Positions 8,703-22,572 of a stretch of 54,632 nt of DNA are shown one piece after another. The notes beneath the pieces are model-generated. The model was not told the origin of the DNA. It did no database searches and saw only the letters and a list, made by a program, of their open reading frames with translations. The DNA comes from Candidatus Roizmanbacteria bacterium RIFCSPHIGHO2_02_FULL_37_13b (GTDB lineage: Bacteria; Patescibacteriota; Microgenomatia; UBA1406; HO2-37-13b), in assembly GCA_001789395.1 (NCBI GenBank), contig MFZK01000014.1:113130-167761 (forward strand), given 5' to 3'. The translations under genes were made by a program, and so were the position numbers. Each line of letters begins with the position of its first letter. Positions within the stretch are counted from its first letter, which is position 1.

Positions 8703-8731
8703 TTGACAAATAAAGATAACATCAATAAAAT
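8703..8731 (+). promoter_or_regulatory. sigma70-like promoter of the lysine operon (TTGACA-17 nt-TAAAAT)
   Basis: TTGACA at 8703-8708, a 17-nt spacer, then TAAAAT at 8726-8731. It lies about 30 nt upstream of the lysW ATG. Confidence 0.45.
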
Positions 8732-8761: not shown

Positions 8762-8935
8762 ATGTCAACAAATTGCCCTATTTGTGATGCTAACCTGGAA
8801 ATTCAGGACAATATTGAAGCAAGCGAAGTTATTTCTTGTTCGGACTGCAATAACCAACTGGTTGTCGCTGAAAAAAAAGAAGATAGAGTGATCCTTGAAG
8901 AAGCGCCGGAGGTAGAAGAGGACTGGGGAGAGTAA
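8762..8935 (+). CDS. lysW: LysW, alpha-aminoadipate/glutamate amino-group carrier protein
   Basis: 57-aa ORF, below the ORF-track cutoff, translated by hand: MSTNCPICDANLEIQDNIEASEVISCSDCNNQLVVAEKKEDRVILEEAPEVEEDWGE. It has a CxxC...CxxC zinc ribbon and the hallmark acidic C-terminus EDWGE, and lies directly upstream of lysX. Confidence 0.85.
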   Translation: MSTNCPICDANLEIQDNIEASEVISCSDCNNQLVVAEKKEDRVILEEAPEVEEDWGE

Positions 8936-8939
8936 GGAT

Positions 8940-9785
8940 ATGGTTATTGGTTTATTACATACAACAATTAGGACTGATGAGAAATTGCTGATTGAAGCTG
9001 CGAAAAAAAGAAACGTTAAAATGATGCTGATTGATGTTCGAGAATCAGCTTTTTTACCGTCCATTCTTTACAATTTCGATGTGGTTTTGGAGCGCTGCGT
9101 ATCAACAACCAAAGGTAATTATGCTATTTCATTTTTTGAGTCCCTAAACATACCGGTGGTTAACTCATCACGAGTTGCAGCTATATGCGAAGATAAATTT
9201 TTAACATCTCTAGCACTTTATAAAAATAAAGTTAAAGAGCCACAATTTGCTATGGTTTTTAATATTGATCAGGCTGTCATTACGATTGAAAAGATGGGTG
9301 GTTATCCTGTAGTTATAAAACCAACAAAAGGATCATGGGGACGACTGTTGGCAAAAGTAAATGATAGCGATGCCTTGGAAACAATTTTAGAACACAAAAC
9401 AGTTTTAGGCTCACCACAGCATAAAGCATTTTATATTCAGCAATACATTGATAAAGCAGGTGTTGATATTAGAGCATTTGTAATTGATGGTGTGGTTATC
9501 TCGGCCATTTCACGTCGAAGTGATCACTGGATTACTAACACAGCACGGGGAGGTAGTGTTGAAAACTATCATGTAACGCAATCACTTCAAGATATTTGTA
9601 AATCTGCAAGCTATGCCGTAGGTGGAGGAGTATTAGCTATTGATTTAATGGAGACAGATAGTGGTTATTTAGTCAATGAAATCAACCACACTATGGAATT
9701 TAAAAATAGTGAAATTCCAACGGGAGTTAGTATTTCTGGTGCTATTATCGATTATTGTTTAAAAATTATAAATAAAAAATGTTAG
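8940..9785 (+). CDS. lysX: LysX, RimK-type ATP-grasp ligase (alpha-aminoadipate--LysW ligase)
   Basis: 281-aa ATP-grasp protein of RimK/LysX size and pattern, immediately after lysW. Confidence 0.85.
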   Translation: MVIGLLHTTIRTDEKLLIEAAKKRNVKMMLIDVRESAFLPSILYNFDVVLERCVSTTKGNYAISFFESLNIPVVNSSRVAAICEDKFLTSLALYKNKVKEPQFAMVFNIDQAVITIEKMGGYPVVIKPTKGSWGRLLAKVNDSDALETILEHKTVLGSPQHKAFYIQQYIDKAGVDIRAFVIDGVVISAISRRSDHWITNTARGGSVENYHVTQSLQDICKSASYAVGGGVLAIDLMETDSGYLVNEINHTMEFKNSEIPTGVSISGAIIDYCLKIINKKC

Positions 9786-9878: not shown

Positions 9879-10928
9879 ATGAGAAATAAAATTAGCGTTT
9901 CTATTCTAGGCGGGTCAGGGTATGCGGGTGGTGAATTGCTTCGGATTTTATTACAACATCCTAATGTTGAAGTATCCCAAGTAACATCTCGTAAGTTTGA
10001 AGGACAATTCGTCACGGTAGTACACCCTAATTTGAGAAAACGAACATCACTTTCCTTTATTGGTCCTGAAAAACTTGAGCGTTGTGATTTATTATTCGTG
10101 GCGCTACCTAATGGAGAATCAATGAATCAGGTGATGCAACTGATTAATAAAGCTAAAAAAATAATTGATCTCGGTGCTGATTTTAGATTACACAATAAAT
10201 CAATTTTTGAAGAATGGTATAAACAACAACATATTAGTCCTCATCTATTAACGAAATTTGTCTATGGAATTTGTGAACTCCATCGATCAGAAATTAAAAA
10301 ATCCCGATTCGTAGCTTGTGCGGGCTGTGAAGCAACTGTGTCCATTCTAGCCCTTTATCCATTGATTAAACATAATTTGATAGAAAGCAAGATTATAATC
10401 GACGCCAAAATGTCTAGTTCTCAAGCAGGGGTTTCTCCTACTCTTTCTTCTCATCATCCGGAGCGTGCTGGTGCAGTGCGTTCGTACATGCCGACCGGAC
10501 ACCGTCATGCTGCTGAGATAATCCAGGAATTATCAATTAATGGTTTTATACCTGATATCGCAATTTCAGCTACGGCAATTGATATGGTTAGGGGACTTTT
10601 AGTGACTTGTCATGTGAGTCCCAAACGGAATATCACGGAAAAAAATATTTGGTCTTCTTATCGTGAAGTATATAGAAACGAGCCATTTATCCGTATTGTG
10701 AAAGAAAAACGAGGTTTATATCGTTACCCCGAGCCAAAAATTCTTCAAGGCACAAACTATTGTGATATTGGATTTGAAATGGATAGTAGGTCAAACAGGC
10801 TTGTAATTATTGCAGCTATAGACAATTTAGTTAAAGGCACTGCAGGACAAGCAGTCCAAGCAATGAACGTGATGTATGGTTATGAAGAAATCACTGCTTT
10901 AGAATTTACCGGTCTTCATCCCATCTAA
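9879..10928 (+). CDS. lysY: LysY, [LysW]-aminoadipyl-phosphate reductase (ArgC family)
   Basis: 349 aa. It has the N-terminal NAD-binding motif GGSGYAGGELLR and an active-site Cys in ACAGCEAT. Confidence 0.85.
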   Translation: MRNKISVSILGGSGYAGGELLRILLQHPNVEVSQVTSRKFEGQFVTVVHPNLRKRTSLSFIGPEKLERCDLLFVALPNGESMNQVMQLINKAKKIIDLGADFRLHNKSIFEEWYKQQHISPHLLTKFVYGICELHRSEIKKSRFVACAGCEATVSILALYPLIKHNLIESKIIIDAKMSSSQAGVSPTLSSHHPERAGAVRSYMPTGHRHAAEIIQELSINGFIPDIAISATAIDMVRGLLVTCHVSPKRNITEKNIWSSYREVYRNEPFIRIVKEKRGLYRYPEPKILQGTNYCDIGFEMDSRSNRLVIIAAIDNLVKGTAGQAVQAMNVMYGYEEITALEFTGLHPI

Positions 10929-12150: not shown

Positions 12151-13410
12151 ATGGCTCAAACAATCGCCGAGAAAATATTTTCTGAACATGTAGGTAAAAC
12201 AGTCTTTGCTGGTGACTATGTCATCGCTGATCTTGATTTAATCATGGCTCATGATACGACATGTGCTTGGGCTATTGAGCCTTTTTATAAAATTGCCAAA
12301 AAAGTATTTGACAAATCAAAAATTTTTATTCCGTTCGATCATGCCTTCCCGGCCCCAAATGTGAAAATGGCAAGTCTTCAAGCCAAAATCCGAAAATTTG
12401 CAGATCAGCAAGGGGTGCCAATCACGATCGATGGCGTTTGTCATCAGATCATGTCGGAGCGGTTCATATACCCGGGAGATCTTATTTTAGGCGCCGACTC
12501 ACACAGTCCGACAGGTGGTGGTCTTGGCGGCCTGACCATTGGCGTTGGTTCAACAGATGCGGCAATTGCAATGGCGTCAGGCAAATGCTGGTTTCAGGTC
12601 CCAAAGACAATTCGAATTGAGATAACAGGTAAGTTACCTAAGGGAGTATTTTCAAAAGATGTAGTCTTACAGGTTGCAAAACAAATCGGACCAGATGGTG
12701 GAAATTATCGAGTACTTGAATATGGTGGAGATACAATAAGAAATTTTGATGTACCTGCACGGTTAACATTGACCAATATGTCTGCGGAAATGGGAGCAAA
12801 AGCGGCGATTGTTGAACCCGACAAGAAAACTGCTGAATATCTAAAAGACAATATGCGCGGCAGGAAATTCGATGAAGACGTGCTTAAAAGCGATCCTGAT
12901 TGCAGATACGAAAAAACGCTTCATTTTAATGTTTCAGAACTGTCACCACAAATTGCCAAGCCGCCCGACATTGATAGAGTTGTAAAAGTTTCAGAATTAG
13001 AGAAAAAAAAGATCAATGTTGATCAAGTGTTTATTGGCTCATGTACAAATTGTAGGATTGAAGACTTGGATGTCGTCAGTAATTTATGGAGAAATCGCAA
13101 ACTTAATAAAAAAGTAAGAACAATAATTACACCGGCATCAAAAAAGGTAATGATGCAGGCGCTGTCAAAAGGGTATGTTGATTTTTTTATGAAACTCGGA
13201 GCCATTATATTAAATCCCGGATGCGGTCCGTGTTTGGGCCGTCATGGTGGTGTATTAGCTGATAATGAAGTATGCGTATCGACAAGCAACAGAAATTTTA
13301 CCGGAAGAATGGGTAGTCCCAAGGCGAAGATCTACCTGGCCAGTCCGGCAACAGCTGCGGCATCAGCCATAACAGGATATATAACTGACCCGAGACAATT
13401 TATAAGTTAA
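12151..13410 (+). CDS. lysT: homoaconitase large subunit (LeuC/HacA family)
   Basis: Aconitase-family motifs are present: DLIMAHD, GADSHSPTGG, and the Fe-S cysteines in IGSCTNCR and PGCGPCLG. Confidence 0.85.
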   Translation: MAQTIAEKIFSEHVGKTVFAGDYVIADLDLIMAHDTTCAWAIEPFYKIAKKVFDKSKIFIPFDHAFPAPNVKMASLQAKIRKFADQQGVPITIDGVCHQIMSERFIYPGDLILGADSHSPTGGGLGGLTIGVGSTDAAIAMASGKCWFQVPKTIRIEITGKLPKGVFSKDVVLQVAKQIGPDGGNYRVLEYGGDTIRNFDVPARLTLTNMSAEMGAKAAIVEPDKKTAEYLKDNMRGRKFDEDVLKSDPDCRYEKTLHFNVSELSPQIAKPPDIDRVVKVSELEKKKINVDQVFIGSCTNCRIEDLDVVSNLWRNRKLNKKVRTIITPASKKVMMQALSKGYVDFFMKLGAIILNPGCGPCLGRHGGVLADNEVCVSTSNRNFTGRMGSPKAKIYLASPATAAASAITGYITDPRQFIS

Positions 13411-15048: not shown

Positions 15049-15861
15049 ATGACTAGTCAGAAATTTTTAATAAAGGTTGGTGGAGGAGAAAAAATTAATT
15101 GGCATTATATTGCCAAAGATTTAGTTGGGATTACTAAAAAAGCAAAAATAGTGATGGTCCATGGAGCTAATGCAATAAGAGACGAAATTGCTAAAAAAAT
15201 GGGAGTACCTACGAGGATTATTACTTCACCTTCGGGTGTATCAAGTGTATATACAGACAGCCTAGCACTCGATATTTTTTTGATGAGTTATGCAGGATTA
15301 GCCAACAAACGTATTGTTTCATTAATGCAAAAATCAGGTCTGAATGCAGTTGGTTTATCTGGTGTCGATGGTAGATTATGGCAAGCTAAGAGAAAGCAGC
15401 ATACGTTTTCGGTTGAGAATGGAAAAACAAAACTAATTAAAAATAACCTTACAGGTCGAGTTGAAGAAATTAATGTGAAATTGATAAATACTCTTTTAAA
15501 AAATTATTTTTTACCCGTTATTTGTCCTCCGGCTATTGACGAAGATAGTCAAATAGTTAATATCGATGGCGATATCGCTGCAGTAAGAACTGCTGCAGCT
15601 CTCGGTATTAAAAAAATTGTTTTTTTGTTCGAAAGTCCGGGTTTGCTTAGACTATATCCAGATGAAAAGTCCTTAATAAATAAAGTGGAGAAAGATAATA
15701 TTGATAAGTATTTACCCATGGTTGTAGGCAGAATGAAAAAGAAAATATTAGCCGTGGAGAAAGCATTCGATTTAGGAATGCAAACCGTTTATTTTGGTGA
15801 TGGTCGCTATGAAAATCCGATTACAAATATTTTGGCGGGAAAAGGTACGATTATTAGTTAA
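15049..15861 (+). CDS. lysZ: LysZ, [LysW]-aminoadipate kinase (acetylglutamate kinase family)
   Basis: 270-aa amino-acid kinase fold (IKVGGGE, VHGANA). Confidence 0.85.
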   Translation: MTSQKFLIKVGGGEKINWHYIAKDLVGITKKAKIVMVHGANAIRDEIAKKMGVPTRIITSPSGVSSVYTDSLALDIFLMSYAGLANKRIVSLMQKSGLNAVGLSGVDGRLWQAKRKQHTFSVENGKTKLIKNNLTGRVEEINVKLINTLLKNYFLPVICPPAIDEDSQIVNIDGDIAAVRTAAALGIKKIVFLFESPGLLRLYPDEKSLINKVEKDNIDKYLPMVVGRMKKKILAVEKAFDLGMQTVYFGDGRYENPITNILAGKGTIIS

Positions 15862-15875
15862 AAGATTTTCTATTT

Positions 15876-17069
15876 ATGAAAAATTACTTATTTTTGGAAA
15901 AACAAGTATTGCTTCCTCTTTATCCACAGCGAGGACTGGTTTTAGTACGTGGACAAGGCGTTCATCTTTATGATATAAACAACAAAGAATATCTTGATAT
16001 GATGAGTAACTACGGCGTTAACATCTTCGGACACACAAATCAATTTATTTTAAACGCAATTTCATATCAGCTTAAAAAAATCACGAATCTACATGGAAGT
16101 TTTACATCAAGTATGCGTGTTGAGGCTGCTGACAGATTAATCAAAATGTGCAAATTGCCAGAGTATCAGATATATTTTTCCAATTCAGGTACAGAGGCAA
16201 TGGAAGCGGCTTTAAAATTTGCTGTTTTGACAACCGGAAAAAAGAAATTCATTGTAATGAAAAATAATTATCACGGTAAGACGTTGGGGGCACTATCGAC
16301 TATGGTTGGATCTAAATATCAAAAACCCTTTTTACCTCTTCTTTGGGATATGGTTGAGACAGAATTTGGTGACATCAAGGATTTAACAAAAAAAATTTCC
16401 TCTGAATTTGCTGCAGTAGTTTTAGAACCGATACAAGGAGAAGGGGGAATTCATGTACCCAGCGGTGATTATTTAAGAGATGTTCAACGTCTATGTCAAA
16501 GTTGCAATGTACTCATGATTGTAGATGAAATTCAAACTGGAGCTGGTAGAACCGGTGAATTTCTATGCAGTAGTTATAGTCGGATTGAACCCGATATCAT
16601 TGCTTTGGGAAAGGGAATTGGTGGAGGTTTGCCGGTTGGGGTAACTTTAGTAAGTAGACAAGTTTCACAAAAAATAATTCGGGGAATTCATAGTTCGACT
16701 TTTGGAGGAAATCCATTGACCTGTGCCGGTATTTGCGCAAGTCTTGAATATATGATCGAAAACGATATTTTTTCACATGTCAAAAAAATCGGTGATTACT
16801 TTATTAACCAACTTATGAGTATTAAATCACCCCATATTAAACAGGTTAGAGGTAAGGGTCTAATGATTGGCGTTGAATTGGATCAACCTGTTACTCCAGT
16901 TTTAAAATTCATGCAGGATAACGGAATATTAGTAATACCAGGAGGAGATATGGTGGTTCGGTTCTTGCCACCATATATTATCGAGAAAAAACATGTTGAC
17001 AAGACAATTAATGTTTTTAACAAGGCTTTAAAATCGTTAATTGTTACCAGTAATATCAAATCCGCTTGA
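15876..17069 (+). CDS. lysJ: LysJ, class III aminotransferase ([LysW]-aminoadipate semialdehyde / acetylornithine aminotransferase family)
   Basis: Motifs SNSGTEAMEAALK, DEIQTGAGRTG and the PLP-lysine context ALGKGIGGG are present. Confidence 0.85.
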   Translation: MKNYLFLEKQVLLPLYPQRGLVLVRGQGVHLYDINNKEYLDMMSNYGVNIFGHTNQFILNAISYQLKKITNLHGSFTSSMRVEAADRLIKMCKLPEYQIYFSNSGTEAMEAALKFAVLTTGKKKFIVMKNNYHGKTLGALSTMVGSKYQKPFLPLLWDMVETEFGDIKDLTKKISSEFAAVVLEPIQGEGGIHVPSGDYLRDVQRLCQSCNVLMIVDEIQTGAGRTGEFLCSSYSRIEPDIIALGKGIGGGLPVGVTLVSRQVSQKIIRGIHSSTFGGNPLTCAGICASLEYMIENDIFSHVKKIGDYFINQLMSIKSPHIKQVRGKGLMIGVELDQPVTPVLKFMQDNGILVIPGGDMVVRFLPPYIIEKKHVDKTINVFNKALKSLIVTSNIKSA

Positions 17070-17084
17070 TTACATACATCCAGC

Positions 17085-17142
17085 GTCATTCCCGCGAAGG
17101 CGGGAATCTATTAGATAGTTTCCGCATCAAGTGCGGAATGAC
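17085..17142. repeat. 58-nt double-hairpin element with GTCATTCC / GGAATGAC termini (ORF-less member of the GTCAT...ATGAC family)
   Basis: GTC-ATTCCCGC-gaag-GCGGGAAT-C, an 11-nt spacer, then TTCCGCA-tcaag-TGCGGAA-TGAC. The outermost 8 nt are perfect reverse complements. It lies between lysJ and the amidotransferase-like gene. Confidence 0.6.
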
Positions 17143-17190
17143 AAGGTGATTAACCGGATTTAATATAACAGTGTAGTTCACTAAAAATAT

Positions 17191-17838
17191 ATGTGTAGAT
17201 TTTTAATGGTTAGATCAAAAAAACCAATTAAACTAGTGGAACTTCTTAGTGATTTTGCTTTTATGTGTAAAAAAAGTGTTGAATGGCAGGGAGATGGTTG
17301 GGGGATTAGTTGGAGGGTTGATAATGGAGGATGGCGGATGGAAAAATCATTAAAACCAATTTGGGACGATGTTAATATATTTGACGGAATTCCAGAATCC
17401 AATATTATTGTTGTTCATGCACGCGGAGCATCATTTCCAAAGCACAAAAACAATATTAATTATAATCAACCATATATTGATAGTGATATGTGTTTTGTTT
17501 TTAATGGTGAGCTTTATGGAGTCAGACTTTATGCAGAAGGACAAATAGGATCGCAAAAAATTTTTTCATTAATTAAAAAAAATTTAGATAAAAATAGTCC
17601 AATAAATACATTAAAAAAATTAAGAAACATGTTGATAAATAATTCATCAGGAATTTTAGGCTGTAACATCGGGCTTGTCATAAATGATAAATTTTATGCT
17701 TCTTGTTTTTACAGTAAAAATAAGGAATATTATACCCTCAGATATTTTTCCGATGATTCAGTTACTATCGTCTGTTCAGAAAAAATAAATAAATTCCTCT
17801 GGCGGAGTATGAAAAAAGGAGATATAATCCAAATATGA
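17191..17838 (+). CDS. class II glutamine amidotransferase-like Ntn hydrolase (YafJ/EgtC-type, COG0121-like)
   Basis: It starts MCRF, with Cys2 as the nucleophile after Met removal. DGWGISW and VHARGAS...FVFNGELYG match the stand-alone GATase-II pattern. Its stop overlaps the LysRS start (ATGA). Confidence 0.75.
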   Translation: MCRFLMVRSKKPIKLVELLSDFAFMCKKSVEWQGDGWGISWRVDNGGWRMEKSLKPIWDDVNIFDGIPESNIIVVHARGASFPKHKNNINYNQPYIDSDMCFVFNGELYGVRLYAEGQIGSQKIFSLIKKNLDKNSPINTLKKLRNMLINNSSGILGCNIGLVINDKFYASCFYSKNKEYYTLRYFSDDSVTIVCSEKINKFLWRSMKKGDIIQI

Positions 17839-20174
17839 TCTGGGTCGATAGGATGGTTGAAGAAATAAAAAAAAGAAATCTAGCAGTAGAATGGATAGAT
17901 GATATGAAGACTCCTTCAGGCAGAATTCATGTTGGTTCACTTCTTGGTGTTGTTTATCATGATCTTATTTATAAGGCATTAATTGAAAAAGGTATTAATG
18001 CAAGTTTCAGTTATGTATTTGAAGATCATGATCCGATGGATGGTATGCCGCCATTTTTAGACGCCAAAAAATGGGGAAAATATATGGGTATGCAGTTGTA
18101 TAAAATACCATCCCCGGAAAAAGGTTATAAAAACTTTGGGCAATATTTTGCTCTGGAATTCAAACATGTTTTTGAAAAAATTAACTGTCACCCACAAATA
18201 ATTTGGGCATCGGACTTGTATCTTTCCGGGAAGATGAATGATGCTGTAACAACGGCTTTGAATAATGCATCTACGATTAGAGAAATTTATCTGCGACATA
18301 CCAAAAGAAAGCTAGCCGATGATTGGTATCCTTTTAATGTTGTTTGTGAAAAATGCCAGAAGATTGGTACGACGAGAGTATTTAATTGGGATGGTGTACT
18401 GGTTCACTATCGATGTATGAAAGATTTGGTTTCTTGGGCTGTTGGATGTGGTTATGAAGGTAAAACTTCGCCATATGACGGGCGGGGGAAAATGCCATGG
18501 AAGGTCGAATGGCCAGCTAAGTGGAAAGTCATTGGCGTCACTGTTGAAGGCGCCGGTAAAGATCACATGTCTAAGGGGGGTTCACATGATATTTCATCAG
18601 ACATATCTCAACAAGTGTTTAAGTATTCTGTGCCATACTCTTTTATTTATGAATGGTTTACGATTGGTGGAAAAAAAATGTCATCATCTAAAGGAGTCGG
18701 ATCATCAGCAAAAGAAGTTTCAAAGATACTACCACCAGAGCTTTTACGTTTTTTAATTGTTCGAACTCCAGTTGAATCTCATCTGGATTTTAATCCCTAT
18801 GGGGACACAATTTTGAATTTATTTGATGAATATGACAGATGCATGAATGCATATTTTGCAAAAAAGGAAAATAAAATTCCCGAGGGAAAGGAAGGTGAAG
18901 TATTATTGGATTTTGCTAGGATTATTGAGCTGTCTGCTGTATCTTCATTGCCAAAAAAAAGAGTAATCTTACCAAGATTTAGAACTGTTGTTAATTTGAT
19001 AAAAAATGCCATAGGGATGGGTAATGACCTGTTTGTTCAAATATATAATGTTTACGAAAGGCAAAAAGGAGATAAATTGTCAACTGAAGAAAAAGAAATA
19101 TTAGATAAGAGAATAAAATACGCCAAAATATATTTAGAAAAATATGCGACACAATCATCGGGCGATTTAAAAATCGCCCCTACTGCAACATTATCTATGG
19201 TGCAAACGCAATTTTTGCAACAATTATCAGAAAAATTATCTGATAAATTAAAAACCAAAGATGAAATTCAAAATATTATCTTTGATATCCTCAAAAAAAA
19301 TAATTTGTCTCCGCGCGAAATTTTTAAACCTTTTTATCAAATATTAAACGGCAGAGATTTTGGTCCAAAAGCAGGAGAGTTAATATTGGAGATGGGGATA
19401 GGGGAGGCTAAAAGAAAGTTAATTGGCGCCTTAAATAACAAGAGTAATTCAAAATCAAATATTAAATTTGAATTTTCAAATCTTAATGATTCTTCAGTAT
19501 TCAGTATTGATCAATCAGTCAGTGAAAAGTTTCCGTCGATTTGTATTGGTATCGCAATAATTAAAAACGTAAAGATCGAAAAGACAAATGAAAAATTAAT
19601 GGCGGACATTAATAATTTTGTGGGTGAACAAAAAAACTTAACAAATGGAATCATCGGATCCTATCATGAAATACAAAGTTATCGGAAGTTATATAAGGCA
19701 ACTGGAATCGATTGGCATTCACGTCGGCCATCACCGGAAGCATTGTTACGACGAATAGCGTTAAATAAAGGAATTTATAGTGTTAACAATTGCGTGGATG
19801 CATACAATCTTGTAGTTATGAAATACCGAGTATCCTCTGGAGCATTTGATTTGAATAATATTAAATTACCAACGAAATTAAGATTAGCAACAGGAAACGA
19901 AAAAATTTTATTATTGGGTGATAAAGAAGGAATTAATTATAAACAAGGGGAGATTGCCTATTTCGATCAAATCGGTGGATATAATATTGATTTTAATTAT
20001 CGGGATAGCCAAAGAACTGCAGTAACAAATGAGACGAGAGATTTATTAATAAATGTTGATGGGATTTTTGATATTACCCGTGGGCAGGTAGAGAAAACAT
20101 TAAAAGAAACTATTGAAACTATAATTAAATACTGTGGGGGGAAGGTGGAGGTGGTTGGGATAGTTGAGGCCTAA
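17835..20174 (+). CDS. class I lysyl-tRNA synthetase with a C-terminal B3/4-like domain extension
   Basis: The class I LysRS signatures PSGRIHVGS (HIGH-like) and KMSSSKG (KMSKS) are present. About 235 extra C-terminal residues (NNCVDAYNLVVMKYRVSSGAFDLNNI...NYRDSQRTAVTNETRDLL) resemble the PheRS-beta B3/4 domain and COG3382 proteins. Confidence 0.88.
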   Translation: MIWVDRMVEEIKKRNLAVEWIDDMKTPSGRIHVGSLLGVVYHDLIYKALIEKGINASFSYVFEDHDPMDGMPPFLDAKKWGKYMGMQLYKIPSPEKGYKNFGQYFALEFKHVFEKINCHPQIIWASDLYLSGKMNDAVTTALNNASTIREIYLRHTKRKLADDWYPFNVVCEKCQKIGTTRVFNWDGVLVHYRCMKDLVSWAVGCGYEGKTSPYDGRGKMPWKVEWPAKWKVIGVTVEGAGKDHMSKGGSHDISSDISQQVFKYSVPYSFIYEWFTIGGKKMSSSKGVGSSAKEVSKILPPELLRFLIVRTPVESHLDFNPYGDTILNLFDEYDRCMNAYFAKKENKIPEGKEGEVLLDFARIIELSAVSSLPKKRVILPRFRTVVNLIKNAIGMGNDLFVQIYNVYERQKGDKLSTEEKEILDKRIKYAKIYLEKYATQSSGDLKIAPTATLSMVQTQFLQQLSEKLSDKLKTKDEIQNIIFDILKKNNLSPREIFKPFYQILNGRDFGPKAGELILEMGIGEAKRKLIGALNNKSNSKSNIKFEFSNLNDSSVFSIDQSVSEKFPSICIGIAIIKNVKIEKTNEKLMADINNFVGEQKNLTNGIIGSYHEIQSYRKLYKATGIDWHSRRPSPEALLRRIALNKGIYSVNNCVDAYNLVVMKYRVSSGAFDLNNIKLPTKLRLATGNEKILLLGDKEGINYKQGEIAYFDQIGGYNIDFNYRDSQRTAVTNETRDLLINVDGIFDITRGQVEKTLKETIETIIKYCGGKVEVVGIVEA

Positions 20175-20690: not shown

Positions 20691-21308
20691 ATGTTCATGA
20701 AAATCCTAATCGGGACGACAAATAAAGGAAAACAACAGGATTACAAAAAAATTCTTTCTGCGAAAATTAAATCACCGATTTCAGTTATTTTTCCTCAGGA
20801 TTTAGATATTGAAAAATCTCCAGTCGAAAACGGCTCGACTTTTGTCGAAAATTCATTAATTAAAGCAAAATATTATTTTGAAAAATCCGGTTTGCCGACA
20901 ATTGCCGATGATGGTGGTATTGAAATTCCGATACTAAATAACGAGCCAGGTGTATTGTCGCGTCGGTGGCCCGGGCATGAAGCAACAGATGATGAACTAA
21001 TTAAATTTACAATACAGAATTTGAAAGAATATCCTAATAGAGAACAAAGACGGGCTTTGTTAACTGTCTGGATTACATATTACGATGGTAAAGACACCAT
21101 TGTTGAAAATGAATCAATCGATGGTTATATATCCAATCAAATTAATATAAACTATATCAAAGGATATCCATATCGAGCATTATTTATTGTTAATGGTGTT
21201 GATAAATATTATGATGAGCTAAGCGATAAGGAACATGCCATTTATAATCATAGAAGAAAAGCCCTTATTAGATTGTGGAAGAAAATTCATTTGAAGTATA
21301 ATATTTGA
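20691..21308 (+). CDS. rdgB: non-canonical purine NTP pyrophosphatase (RdgB/HAM1 family)
   Basis: Has the N-terminal ILIGTTNKGKQQDY motif and is of the expected size and overall pattern. Confidence 0.8.
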   Translation: MFMKILIGTTNKGKQQDYKKILSAKIKSPISVIFPQDLDIEKSPVENGSTFVENSLIKAKYYFEKSGLPTIADDGGIEIPILNNEPGVLSRRWPGHEATDDELIKFTIQNLKEYPNREQRRALLTVWITYYDGKDTIVENESIDGYISNQININYIKGYPYRALFIVNGVDKYYDELSDKEHAIYNHRRKALIRLWKKIHLKYNI

Positions 21309-21309
21309 T

Positions 21310-22572
21310 ATGTTATCAATCGATTTTATACGTCAAAACAAAGAAAAGGTACTGACATCGGCAAAAAATAAGAATTTTGGCGATATCAATTTAGATAAAA
21401 TATTATCTTTGGATGATAAACGACATGAGGTAATTATACGCATTCAAAAGATAAGAGAAGAAAGAAATAAACTAGCAGGTCAGAAGCTAAATGATAAATT
21501 AAGAGATACGGGCCGGCGTCTTAAAGAAGATTTAAAAAAATTAGAGGTTGAATTAGAATCTATTGAAAATAAGCTAAAACCTTTGAGTTTAGAAATTCCA
21601 AATATCGCGCTACACGATGTTAAGGCTGGAAAAGACGAGAGTGAAAATGATGTAATCAAGACCGTAGGTGATAAAACTGCGTTTAAATTTGCTCCAAAAG
21701 ATCATCTTGAGCTTGGTGAAAAACTTGATATTATTGACGTTCGACGTACTGCTAAAGTATCAGGATCACGATTTGGCTATTTAAAAAATCAGGGAGTTTT
21801 ACTTGAATTTGCTCTTATTGAGCTAGCATTAAAAGAACTTATTACAGAAAGTTTTATTCCCATAATTCCACCAACTCTTGTAAAAAAAAGAATCACCGAG
21901 GGTTTGGGATATTGGCAAGCCGGTGGTAATAATGATTATTATGTAGTTAAGGAACCGGATATCGATGATGGTCTTATGTATCTTGTTGGTACAGCTGAAC
22001 ATTCTATAGTCCCATTTCACGCTGACGAAATACTGGATGCAAAATCACTACCTCTTCGTTATGCTGCTTTTTCAACATGTTTTAGAAGAGAAGCAGGCTC
22101 ATATGGCAAGGATACACGAGGGATATTTAGAGTTCATCAGTTTGATAAAATAGAAATGGTATCATTTACGACTCCGGAAAAGGGTGATGAAGAACATGAT
22201 TTTTTACTCTCAATGGAAGAACGACTCTTTCAAAAGCTTGAAATACCCTACCAGGTGATAAAAATGTGTACGGGTGATTTGGGTTTTCCGACTGCTAGGA
22301 AATATGACATTGAGGCTTGGATACCTTCACAAAATAAATATCGTGAAGTTACTTCAGCTTCAACAACAACTGATTTTCAAGCAAGAAGATTAAATATCAA
22401 ATTTAAAGATGGTAACAAAAAAGAATTCGCATATATTTTAAACGGAACAGCTTTTGCAATTGGACGGACCTTAATTGCGATTCTGGAAAATCATCAACAA
22501 TTGGATGGCTCAGTTAAAATTCCAAAAGTACTGCAACCCTACTGCGGATTTGATAAAATAGAACACATTTGA
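21310..22572 (+). CDS. serS: seryl-tRNA synthetase
   Basis: 420 aa. It has an N-terminal coiled-coil arm and the class II motifs (FRREAGSYGKDTRGIFRVHQF, GTAFAIGRTLIAILEN). Confidence 0.95.
   Translation: MLSIDFIRQNKEKVLTSAKNKNFGDINLDKILSLDDKRHEVIIRIQKIREERNKLAGQKLNDKLRDTGRRLKEDLKKLEVELESIENKLKPLSLEIPNIALHDVKAGKDESENDVIKTVGDKTAFKFAPKDHLELGEKLDIIDVRRTAKVSGSRFGYLKNQGVLLEFALIELALKELITESFIPIIPPTLVKKRITEGLGYWQAGGNNDYYVVKEPDIDDGLMYLVGTAEHSIVPFHADEILDAKSLPLRYAAFSTCFRREAGSYGKDTRGIFRVHQFDKIEMVSFTTPEKGDEEHDFLLSMEERLFQKLEIPYQVIKMCTGDLGFPTARKYDIEAWIPSQNKYREVTSASTTTDFQARRLNIKFKDGNKKEFAYILNGTAFAIGRTLIAILENHQQLDGSVKIPKVLQPYCGFDKIEHI

What the first reader, a model, noticed from the sequence alone, without database searches (positions are those of the whole stretch)
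17191..17838. Ntn-type class II amidotransferase-like protein as candidate non-orthologous replacement for the LysW-lysine hydrolase
A 215-aa stand-alone GATase-II/YafJ-type protein (MCRF..., DGWG, HARGAS, FNGELYG) sits at the end of the lysine cluster. Its stop overlaps the start of the class I LysRS (ATGA).

Established: members of this family, for example EgtC, are N-terminal-Cys hydrolases that cleave gamma-glutamyl amide bonds. The last AAA-pathway step is hydrolysis of the isopeptide bond between the gamma-carboxyl of LysW's C-terminal Glu and the alpha-amino group of lysine. No M20-type LysK is present in the cluster.

Inference: this enzyme could release lysine from LysW-gamma-Lys and hand it directly to the co-translated LysRS.
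Basis: inference. Interest (0 to 1): 0.6.

Follow-up and report, generated by a model that had tools for sequence, protein, structure and literature searches.

The report
Cysteine hydrolase replacing LysK in lysine operon
A small cysteine-nucleophile hydrolase at the end of this bacterium's carrier-protein (LysW) lysine operon most likely cuts the finished lysine off the carrier, a step so far known only for the unrelated metal enzyme LysK, and the same swap recurs in many phyla.

Summary
A 215-aa ORF (17191-17838, +) starts Met-Cys, carries the class-II amidotransferase motifs, follows lysW-X-Y-HCS-hacAB-HICDH-Z-J, and its stop overlaps the start of a class I LysRS.

- **No LysK here.** The 93.5%-complete genome has no LysK. 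Its only M20 gene is PepD-like.
- **Linkage.** The protein belongs to a small, distinct family. In 70 of 80 species-representative loci it sits inside lysWXYZJ clusters, at several different positions.
- **Exclusion.** Of 23 LysX-positive Acidobacteriota genomes, 14 have this gene and no LysK, and 9 lack it and all have LysK.
- **Structure.** The AlphaFold model (pLDDT 97.7) is closest to EgtC, a gamma-glutamyl amide hydrolase. The Asp that holds the free alpha-amino group in canonical enzymes is a near-invariant Gly here.
- **Docking.** A complex model puts LysW's C-terminal EDWGE tail in the active site (score 0.67, best control 0.00).
- **Gln-ended carriers.** LysW ends in Gln in 17 of 60 such clusters, and in 0 of 28 LysK clusters.

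Nothing is shown biochemically. Direct hand-off of lysine to LysRS is unsupported. No paper describing this was found. This scan had already reached the same reading on other genomes.

The parts
17191..17838 (+). Cys-Ntn amidohydrolase, 215 aa (P0001). Proposed [LysW]-gamma-L-lysine hydrolase, an analogue of LysK.
8762..8935 (+). lysW, the amino-group carrier protein (57 aa, zinc ribbon, C-terminal EDWGE). Proposed protein substrate of the hydrolase.
   Evidence: Pfam PF21344, E 1.6e-10; tail read; tail residues 51-57 lie in the modelled interface
8940..9785 (+). lysX, the LysW--alpha-aminoadipate ligase
   Evidence: TIGR02144, 288.2 bits, cut-off 275.6
9879..10928 (+). lysY (ArgC-type reductase)
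   Evidence: TIGR01850, 392 bits
10934..12148 (+). homocitrate synthase-like gene
   Evidence: HMGL-like plus HCS_D2; the best NCBIfam match, TIGR02146, is below its cut-off
12151..13410 (+). homoaconitase large subunit
   Evidence: TIGR01343 hacA_fam, 521 bits
13550..14053 (+). homoaconitase small subunit
   Evidence: TIGR02087, 171.5 bits
14050..15045 (+). homoisocitrate dehydrogenase-like gene
   Evidence: Iso_dh, 344.6 bits; AksF-type models at 389 bits, below their cut-offs
15049..15861 (+). lysZ, the [LysW]-aminoadipate kinase
   Evidence: NF010659, 294.2 bits, cut-off 223
15876..17069 (+). lysJ, a class III aminotransferase
   Evidence: Aminotran_3, 334.7 bits; LysJ models at 318-321 bits, below their 700-bit cut-offs
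17835..20174 (+). class I lysyl-tRNA synthetase fused to a B3_4 domain. Translationally coupled to the hydrolase by an ATGA overlap.
   Evidence: TIGR00467, 355 bits; PF03483, 73.6 bits; overlap read

Best explanation
Proposed function. The gene encodes a stand-alone N-terminal-cysteine (Ntn) amidohydrolase of the class-II amidotransferase / EgtC fold. It has taken over the last step of the LysW-mediated alpha-aminoadipate pathway.

Proposed mechanism (inferred):
1. Met1 is removed, and Cys2 becomes both the nucleophile and, through its free alpha-amine, the general base.
2. LysW-gamma-Lys binds with its EDWG-Glu tail in the active-site cleft.
3. Arg78 holds the free alpha-carboxylate of the terminal Glu.
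4. Asn105-Gly106 form the oxyanion hole.
5. Cys2 attacks the gamma-glutamyl amide. Lysine leaves.
6. Water hydrolyses the gamma-glutamyl thioester, regenerating LysW with a free gamma-carboxylate.

Family-specific change. The Asp that binds the substrate's free alpha-amino group in canonical enzymes is Gly120 here (>=90% conserved). This makes room for the LysW backbone (Trp55-Gly56), which occupies that position.

A second role follows from the same chemistry. The enzyme would convert a LysW encoded with a C-terminal Gln into the active Glu form.

Shown here: the sequence features, the fold prediction, the gene linkage, the genome-level exclusion with LysK, and the modelled interface. Inferred: the substrate, the reaction and the residue roles.
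For: 1. The pathway needs a hydrolase and none of the known kind is present. There is no TIGR01902 match in the 93.5%-complete genome. The only M20 gene is PepD-type.

2. The family is small and distinct. Only 287 of 1.84 billion representative proteins match at E<=1e-3. Most members are 200-235 aa, and 192 of 216 begin MC.

3. Linkage. In 70 of 80 species-representative loci the gene lies on the same strand inside lysW/X/Y/Z/J clusters.
- It occupies several different slots: after lysJ, between lysZ and lysJ, between lysY and lysZ, and next to the HCS/Hac genes.
- Four of the 10 exceptions are at contig edges.
- The other six are Entotheonella-type (Tectimicrobiota) genomes. The three of these that were checked have LysX elsewhere and no LysK.
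- No other extra gene recurs in the 67 clusters examined.

4. Complementary distribution with LysK.
- Acidobacteriota sample: of 23 LysX-positive genomes, 14 have the gene and none of those has LysK. The 9 without it all have LysK, in the slot after lysJ wherever the cluster was read (8 of the 9).
- Sample of 401 genomes from the window's own phylum: the gene is strong in 5 of the 6 LysX-positive genomes and in 0 of 395 others. The one LysX-positive genome without it has LysK.
- Of 50 further genomes with the gene, 1 has a LysK over the cut-off. That genome has two LysW clusters, one with each hydrolase.
- None of 80 LysK loci from metagenomes holds the gene.

5. Catalytic equipment is conserved. 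C2, R3, R78 and G117 are invariant. H76, N105, G106 and G120 are at 90% or more, and K123 is at 94%.

6. Fold. The AlphaFold model has pLDDT 97.7. The best PDB matches are EgtC, a gamma-glutamyl amide hydrolase (TM 0.77-0.81, E 6.5e-13).

7. Loss of the canonical Asp. The Asp of 'TDSE' in 3mdn, in a YafJ-like paralogue and in two GlmS sequences aligns with Gly120.

8. Complex model of the hydrolase with LysW.
- Score 0.67 (runs 0.67, 0.67, 0.64). The best of 3 controls scored 0.00.
- That mark was reached by 58 of 80 solved complexes and 2 of 110 mismatched pairs. These counts hold only roughly here because my own alignments were used.
- The runs agree in at least 87% of contacts. Partner pLDDT is 81-85.
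- The interface is hydrolase residues 1-2, 78-82, 104-114 and 119-124 against LysW residues 51-57.

9. Gln-ended carriers. LysW ends EDWGQ in 17 of 60 clusters with this gene and in 0 of 28 LysK clusters. Fisher p is about 9e-4, not corrected for phylogeny.
Against: No biochemical or genetic test exists. Every line of evidence is comparative or predicted.

Kinship inflates the exclusion statistics. On a LysX tree the hydrolase type needs at least 5 changes, but well-supported branches alone force only 1. One ancient swap plus cluster transfer is therefore not excluded.

Two genomes hold both the gene and LysK (G072 and G404). Both have several LysX copies.

Absence of LysK is judged by the TIGR01902 cut-off in incomplete MAGs. 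Many larger genomes have sub-threshold M20 relatives of up to 118 bits.

The complex model includes Met1 and an unmodified LysW, not LysW-gamma-Lys.

In this window a 121-nt spacer with a hairpin element separates the gene from lysJ.
Confidence: 0.85

Rival explanations
1. The enzyme is only a maturation deamidase. It converts Gln-ended LysW to the Glu form, and some other protein releases lysine.
For: 17 of 60 linked LysW genes end in Gln, and none of the 28 LysK-linked ones does. Deamidating a C-terminal Gln is exactly glutaminase chemistry.
Against: 43 of 60 linked LysW genes, including this window's, already end in Glu, yet the gene is retained. These genomes lack LysK. No other hydrolase gene recurs in the clusters.
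Confidence: 0.05
2. It is a free glutaminase or an amidotransferase subunit. It supplies ammonia, for example for amination of 2-oxoadipate, and does not act on LysW.
For: There is weak similarity to Pfam GATase_4. The cluster also lacks an alpha-aminoadipate aminotransferase gene.
Against: The Asp that binds the free alpha-amino group of glutamine is replaced by a near-invariant Gly. No synthase partner or fused domain is seen. The exclusion is with LysK specifically. The genome has several class I/II aminotransferases that could serve as LysN. LysW's tail is modelled in the active site.
Confidence: 0.03
3. The release step is done by a divergent metallopeptidase or another unrecognised hydrolase, such as the PepD-type M20 on contig 3. 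The Ntn protein would then have an accessory role, for example proofreading mis-charged LysW.
For: One M20 gene exists in this genome. Many larger genomes with the gene have sub-threshold M20 relatives.
Against: 19 of 50 genomes with the gene have no TIGR01902-like match even at E 1e-10, and several have no candidate at all. PepD-type genes are not linked to the clusters. All 9 Acidobacteriota genomes that lack the gene have a genuine LysK, sitting in the cluster in the 8 that were read.
Confidence: 0.05

Closest known systems
EgtC, the ergothioneine-pathway Ntn amidohydrolase (PDB 4zfj/4zfk/4zfl; NCBIfam TIGR03442)
   Same: It is the best structural match (TM 0.77-0.81). Both are stand-alone proteins of about 220-230 aa with a Cys-Ntn fold. 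EgtC hydrolyses a gamma-glutamyl amide and releases the amine part, which is the chemistry proposed here.
   Different: Sequence identity is only 19-20%. The TIGR03442 score is 29 bits against a cut-off of 218. There are no egt genes in the neighbourhood. The proposed substrate is the C-terminal residue of a protein, not a free gamma-glutamyl compound. The residue that anchors the alpha-amino group in canonical class-II enzymes (Asp in 3mdn, GlmS and a YafJ-like paralogue) is Gly here. The EgtC alignment itself stopped just short of that position.
LysK, the [LysW]-lysine/ornithine hydrolase (M20 metallopeptidase, ArgE/DapE family; TIGR01902)
   Same: The proposed reaction and pathway position are the same. 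The gene occupies the same or a similar slot in lysWXYZJ clusters and is mutually exclusive with LysK.
   Different: The fold and mechanism are unrelated: a metal-dependent M20 enzyme against a cysteine N-terminal nucleophile. There is no sequence similarity. Only the Ntn type co-occurs with Gln-ended LysW.
YafJ / GATase_4 stand-alone class-II amidotransferase-like proteins (PDB 3mdn, 1te5)
   Same: They share the superfamily and the N-terminal Cys, Arg and Asn-Gly motifs. 3mdn is the best profile match to solved structures (E 2e-11).
   Different: The Pfam score is below the gathering threshold. YafJ-type proteins keep the TDSE Asp, are about 250-280 aa long, and are not linked to lysW. One example is the paralogue in G069.

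Membership tests
Class-II (Ntn) glutamine amidotransferase superfamily | Cysteine directly after the initiator Met, serving as the N-terminal nucleophile | tested here: met
   Cys2 is invariant in 98 aligned members. 192 of 216 full-length relatives start MC.
Class-II (Ntn) glutamine amidotransferase superfamily | Four-layer alpha-beta-beta-alpha Ntn fold | tested here: met
   The AlphaFold model has pLDDT 97.7. Foldseek matches EgtC, 3mdn, 1te5, GlmS and PurF glutaminase domains, all at probability 1.00.
Class-II (Ntn) glutamine amidotransferase superfamily | Oxyanion-hole Asn-Gly and the Arg that binds the substrate alpha-carboxylate | tested here: met
   R78 is invariant. N105 and G106 are at 90% or more. 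They align with the corresponding motifs of 3mdn, EgtC and GlmS.
Class-II (Ntn) glutamine amidotransferase superfamily | Asp (the TDSE motif) that binds the free alpha-amino group of glutamine or the gamma-glutamyl substrate | tested here: not met
   This position aligns with Gly120, conserved at 90% or more (motif G-x-I-G-A/S-Q-K).
Pfam GATase_4 (PF13230) | Score at or above the gathering threshold | tested here: not met
   20.8 bits against 23, E 2e-4.
EgtC (TIGR03442 equivalog) | Score at or above the curated cut-off, and an ergothioneine gene context | tested here: not met
   29.3 bits against 218.65. The neighbours are lys genes and LysRS, not egt genes.
LysK (M20, TIGR01902) | M20 metallopeptidase fold and sequence | tested here: not met
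   The fold is different. Nothing in the genome matches TIGR01902. The similarity to LysK is one of role only.
LysW / amino-group-carrier-protein lysine pathway (the system) | A LysW zinc-ribbon carrier with an acidic EDWGE tail, plus the LysX ligase | tested here: met
   PF21344, E 1.6e-10. The tail EDWGE was read. LysX TIGR02144 scores 288 bits, over its cut-off.
LysW / amino-group-carrier-protein lysine pathway (the system) | LysZ, LysY and LysJ, plus the homocitrate-to-2-oxoadipate enzymes | tested here: met
   LysZ NF010659 and ArgC-type TIGR01850 are over their cut-offs, and the HacA/HacB family models too. LysJ, HCS and HICDH are recognised at family level only.
LysW / amino-group-carrier-protein lysine pathway (the system) | Hydrolysis of LysW-gamma-Lys by this protein | not testable with these tools
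   This needs an enzyme assay or genetic complementation.

The most novel reading that the evidence does not exclude
This is a previously undescribed enzyme activity: a protein-C-terminal gamma-glutamyl amidase built on the Ntn amidotransferase fold. It would have two roles. It releases lysine (or ornithine) from LysW in place of LysK, and it activates LysW carriers that are encoded with a terminal Gln. It would have displaced LysK more than once across bacteria and archaea.
Probability: 0.45. Interest if true: 0.8.

Novelty: new variant of a known kind. Interest (0 to 1): 0.7.

Why it matters
The LysW pathway is well studied, but LysK is the only release enzyme described for it. A 2025 paper from the field still names LysK alone (PMC12998189).

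Genomes with this gene look as if their lysine pathway lacks its last step. Metabolic reconstructions would therefore call them lysine auxotrophs. That applies to candidate-phyla bacteria such as this one, and to Acidobacteriota, Thermodesulfobacteriota, Aminicenantes, Tectimicrobiota and some archaea. At least 531 species-representative genomes carry a relative.

Assigning the step closes that gap. It gives a clean case of non-orthologous gene displacement. It also defines an Ntn hydrolase that takes the C-terminal residue of a protein as its gamma-glutamyl substrate.

The idea is directly testable with two small soluble proteins.

Tried and rejected
Searches that found nothing or failed:
- The search for related loci with the 98-row alignment failed because no stretch was conserved enough.
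- The same tool with the single protein found nothing. A 17-row alignment worked.
- Three literature searches for any link between LysW and a class-II amidotransferase or Ntn hydrolase found none. One apparent hit was unrelated. The library lacks most subscription journals.

Checks that were uninformative:
- The promoter and terminator scan was no better than shuffled sequence. The best promoter-like site (11 of 12) lies just upstream of lysW at 8703-8731. No terminator-like site lies between lysJ and the gene.
- The Rfam scan gave only a sub-threshold FtrB match over the hairpin spacer, and no lysine riboswitch.

Readings considered and rejected:
- EgtC membership.
- A plain glutaminase.
- The PepD-type M20 acting as the hidden LysK.

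The rival explanations give the reasons for each.

Full report
**What is in the window**

The ORF at 17191-17838 (+) encodes 215 residues that begin MCRF. Its TGA stop overlaps the ATG of the next ORF, 17835-20174. That ORF is a class I lysyl-tRNA synthetase with a C-terminal B3_4 domain.

Upstream on the same strand lies a complete LysW-type alpha-aminoadipate cluster. It comprises lysW (57 aa, tail EDWGE), lysX, lysY, homocitrate synthase, both homoaconitase subunits, homoisocitrate dehydrogenase, lysZ and lysJ.

GreA in the window marks a bacterium. The nearest LysX relatives are Roizmanbacteria and other candidate-phyla lineages. The genome is 1.16 Mb and 93.5% complete.

**The missing step**

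The whole genome has no match to the LysK model TIGR01902. Its single M20 gene is a 503-aa PepD-type dipeptidase on another contig. Several class I/II aminotransferases exist that could serve as the alpha-aminoadipate aminotransferase. The release step is therefore the pathway's only real gap.

**The protein family**

Curated models barely see the protein. GATase_4 scores 20.8 bits, below its threshold. EgtC scores 29 bits against a cut-off of 218.

An exhaustive search of 1.84 billion representative proteins gives only 287 matches at E<=1e-3. A word-index search gives 119 close relatives, which are unnamed or called 'predicted glutamine amidotransferase'. Most members are 200-235 aa, and 192 of 216 start Met-Cys.

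In a 98-sequence alignment C2, R3, R78 and G117 are invariant. Q33, G36, G38, W58, H76, N105, G106, G120, N159, Y180 and S196 are conserved at 90% or more.

**Fold and active site**

The AlphaFold model has pLDDT 97.7. Its best PDB matches are the EgtC structures (TM 0.77-0.81), followed by 3mdn, 1te5 and the glutaminase domains of GlmS and PurF.

From established knowledge of class-II amidotransferases, four elements matter. Cys1 is the nucleophile. An Asn-Gly pair forms the oxyanion hole. An Arg binds the substrate's alpha-carboxylate. An Asp binds its free alpha-amino group.

The first three are conserved here. The Asp is not. In alignments to 3mdn, to a YafJ-like paralogue and to two GlmS sequences (one from this genome), the Asp of 'TDSE' falls on Gly120 of the motif G-x-I-G-A/S-Q-K.

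A gamma-glutamyl substrate whose alpha-amine is part of a peptide chain would need exactly this change. The C-terminal Glu of LysW is such a substrate.

**Gene neighbourhood**

Five relatives at 34-46% identity were looked up by exact sequence. Four of them sit inside lysW clusters, in three different slots. The fifth, from a Chloroflexi MAG, sits next to a Ham1 gene.

A scan of one genome per species returned at least 531 relatives, and 80 loci were kept. I annotated these with the window's own proteins as queries.
- In 70 of 80 the gene lies on the same strand among lysW/X/Y/Z/J.
- Four of the other ten are at a contig edge.
- Six are Entotheonella/Tectimicrobiota loci. The three of those genomes that I checked have LysX elsewhere and no LysK.
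- No other unassigned gene recurs inside the 67 clusters examined.

The hosts span candidate-phyla bacteria, Acidobacteriota, Aminicenantes, Thermodesulfobacteriota, Ignavibacteriota, Chloroflexota and two archaeal MAGs.

**Complementarity with LysK**

In 401 genomes sampled from the window's phylum, LysX passes its cut-off in six. The gene is strong in five of those six and in none of the other 395. The sixth genome has LysK instead.

In a 201-genome Acidobacteriota sample, 23 genomes have LysX. Fourteen have the gene and none of those has LysK. Nine lack it and all nine have LysK. In the eight of those nine whose cluster was read, the order is lysW-X-Y-Z-J-K.

Of 50 further genomes with the gene, one has a LysK over the cut-off. 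That archaeal MAG has two LysW clusters, one ending in the Ntn gene and one ending in lysK. None of 80 LysK loci from metagenomes contains the gene.

These genomes are related to one another, which weakens the statistics. On a LysX tree the hydrolase type needs at least five changes, but well-supported branches alone force only one.

**A second signal: Gln-ended carriers**

LysW must present a free gamma-carboxylate. In 17 of 60 clusters with the Ntn gene, however, lysW encodes ...EDWGQ. All 28 LysW genes in LysK clusters end ...EDWGE. Fisher p is about 9e-4, not corrected for phylogeny.

A C-terminal Gln is itself a gamma-glutamyl amide. An enzyme that cleaves LysW-gamma-Lys would also convert it to Glu. 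The window's own LysW ends in Glu.

**Complex model**

The hydrolase and LysW were folded together, each with its own alignment.
- The score was 0.67 (runs 0.67, 0.67, 0.64), against 0.00 for the best of three controls.
- That mark was reached by 58 of 80 solved complexes and 2 of 110 mismatched pairs. These counts hold only roughly here because my own alignments were used.
- The runs share at least 87% of contacts, and partner pLDDT is 81-85.
- The interface joins hydrolase residues 1-2, 78-82, 104-114 and 119-124 to LysW residues 51-57. Trp55 and Gly56 lie against 106-111 and 119-124.

This supports binding but does not show it. To my knowledge no similar complex has been solved.

**Verdict**

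The best explanation is a non-orthologous replacement of LysK by a Cys-Ntn gamma-glutamyl amidase that acts on the LysW C-terminus. I put it at about 0.85.

Direct hand-off of lysine to LysRS has no support beyond co-expression. A LysRS gene follows the hydrolase in many candidate-phyla loci, including a class II LysRS in one, but not elsewhere.

No paper in the searchable library links LysW to such an enzyme. A 2025 paper from the field still names only LysK.

Earlier follow-ups in this scan reached the same reading on other genomes, including the Gln-tail observation. I read those notes after my own tests were done.

Noticed in passing
window 17835-20174; L009 10656-12959; L004 10693-12798: The class I LysRS fused to a B3_4 domain recurs right after the hydrolase in relatives (767 aa in L009). 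In a Gottesmanbacteria relative, a class II LysRS with a weak HD-domain hit (701 aa) holds the same position. The lysine-operon-to-LysRS linkage is therefore kept across LysRS classes.
   Followed up: partly
window 17066-17168: The 121-nt lysJ-to-hydrolase spacer holds a hairpin element. It gives a sub-threshold Rfam match to FtrB (36 bits against 66), which is probably a chance match caused by the hairpins.
   Followed up: partly
L030 and L129 (genome G404, Borrarchaeota MAG): One archaeal MAG has two LysW clusters. One is lysW(Gln-ended)-X-Y-Z-J with the Ntn hydrolase. The other is lysW(Glu-ended)-X-Y-Z-J-K.
   Followed up: partly
L030 vs L032: The LysX proteins of a Borrarchaeota MAG and a Dehalococcoidia MAG are almost identical (branch lengths about 0.06). 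This suggests either a binning error or very recent transfer.
   Followed up: no
G593:C70:10882-11622: In one Acidobacteriota genome the hydrolase matches in two adjacent pieces (profile positions 67-214 and 1-83). This could be a frameshift or an assembly error.
   Followed up: no
L028, L031, L037, L038 and others: Many MAG records titled 'uncultured Gammaproteobacteria' carry candidate-phyla-type clusters and group with Gottesman-, Levy- and Roizmanbacteria in the LysX tree. The record titles look wrong.
   Followed up: no
window 20691-22572; L006 9344-9949: Ham1 (ITPase) and SerRS follow the LysRS here and in several relatives. In a Chloroflexi MAG the hydrolase homologue sits next to Ham1, away from any lys cluster.
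   Followed up: no
L128 (G047:C63) and G072: Two genomes of the window's phylum have three LysX paralogues each. G047 has two in tandem beside lysW and the hydrolase. This suggests separate lysine and ornithine branches.
   Followed up: no
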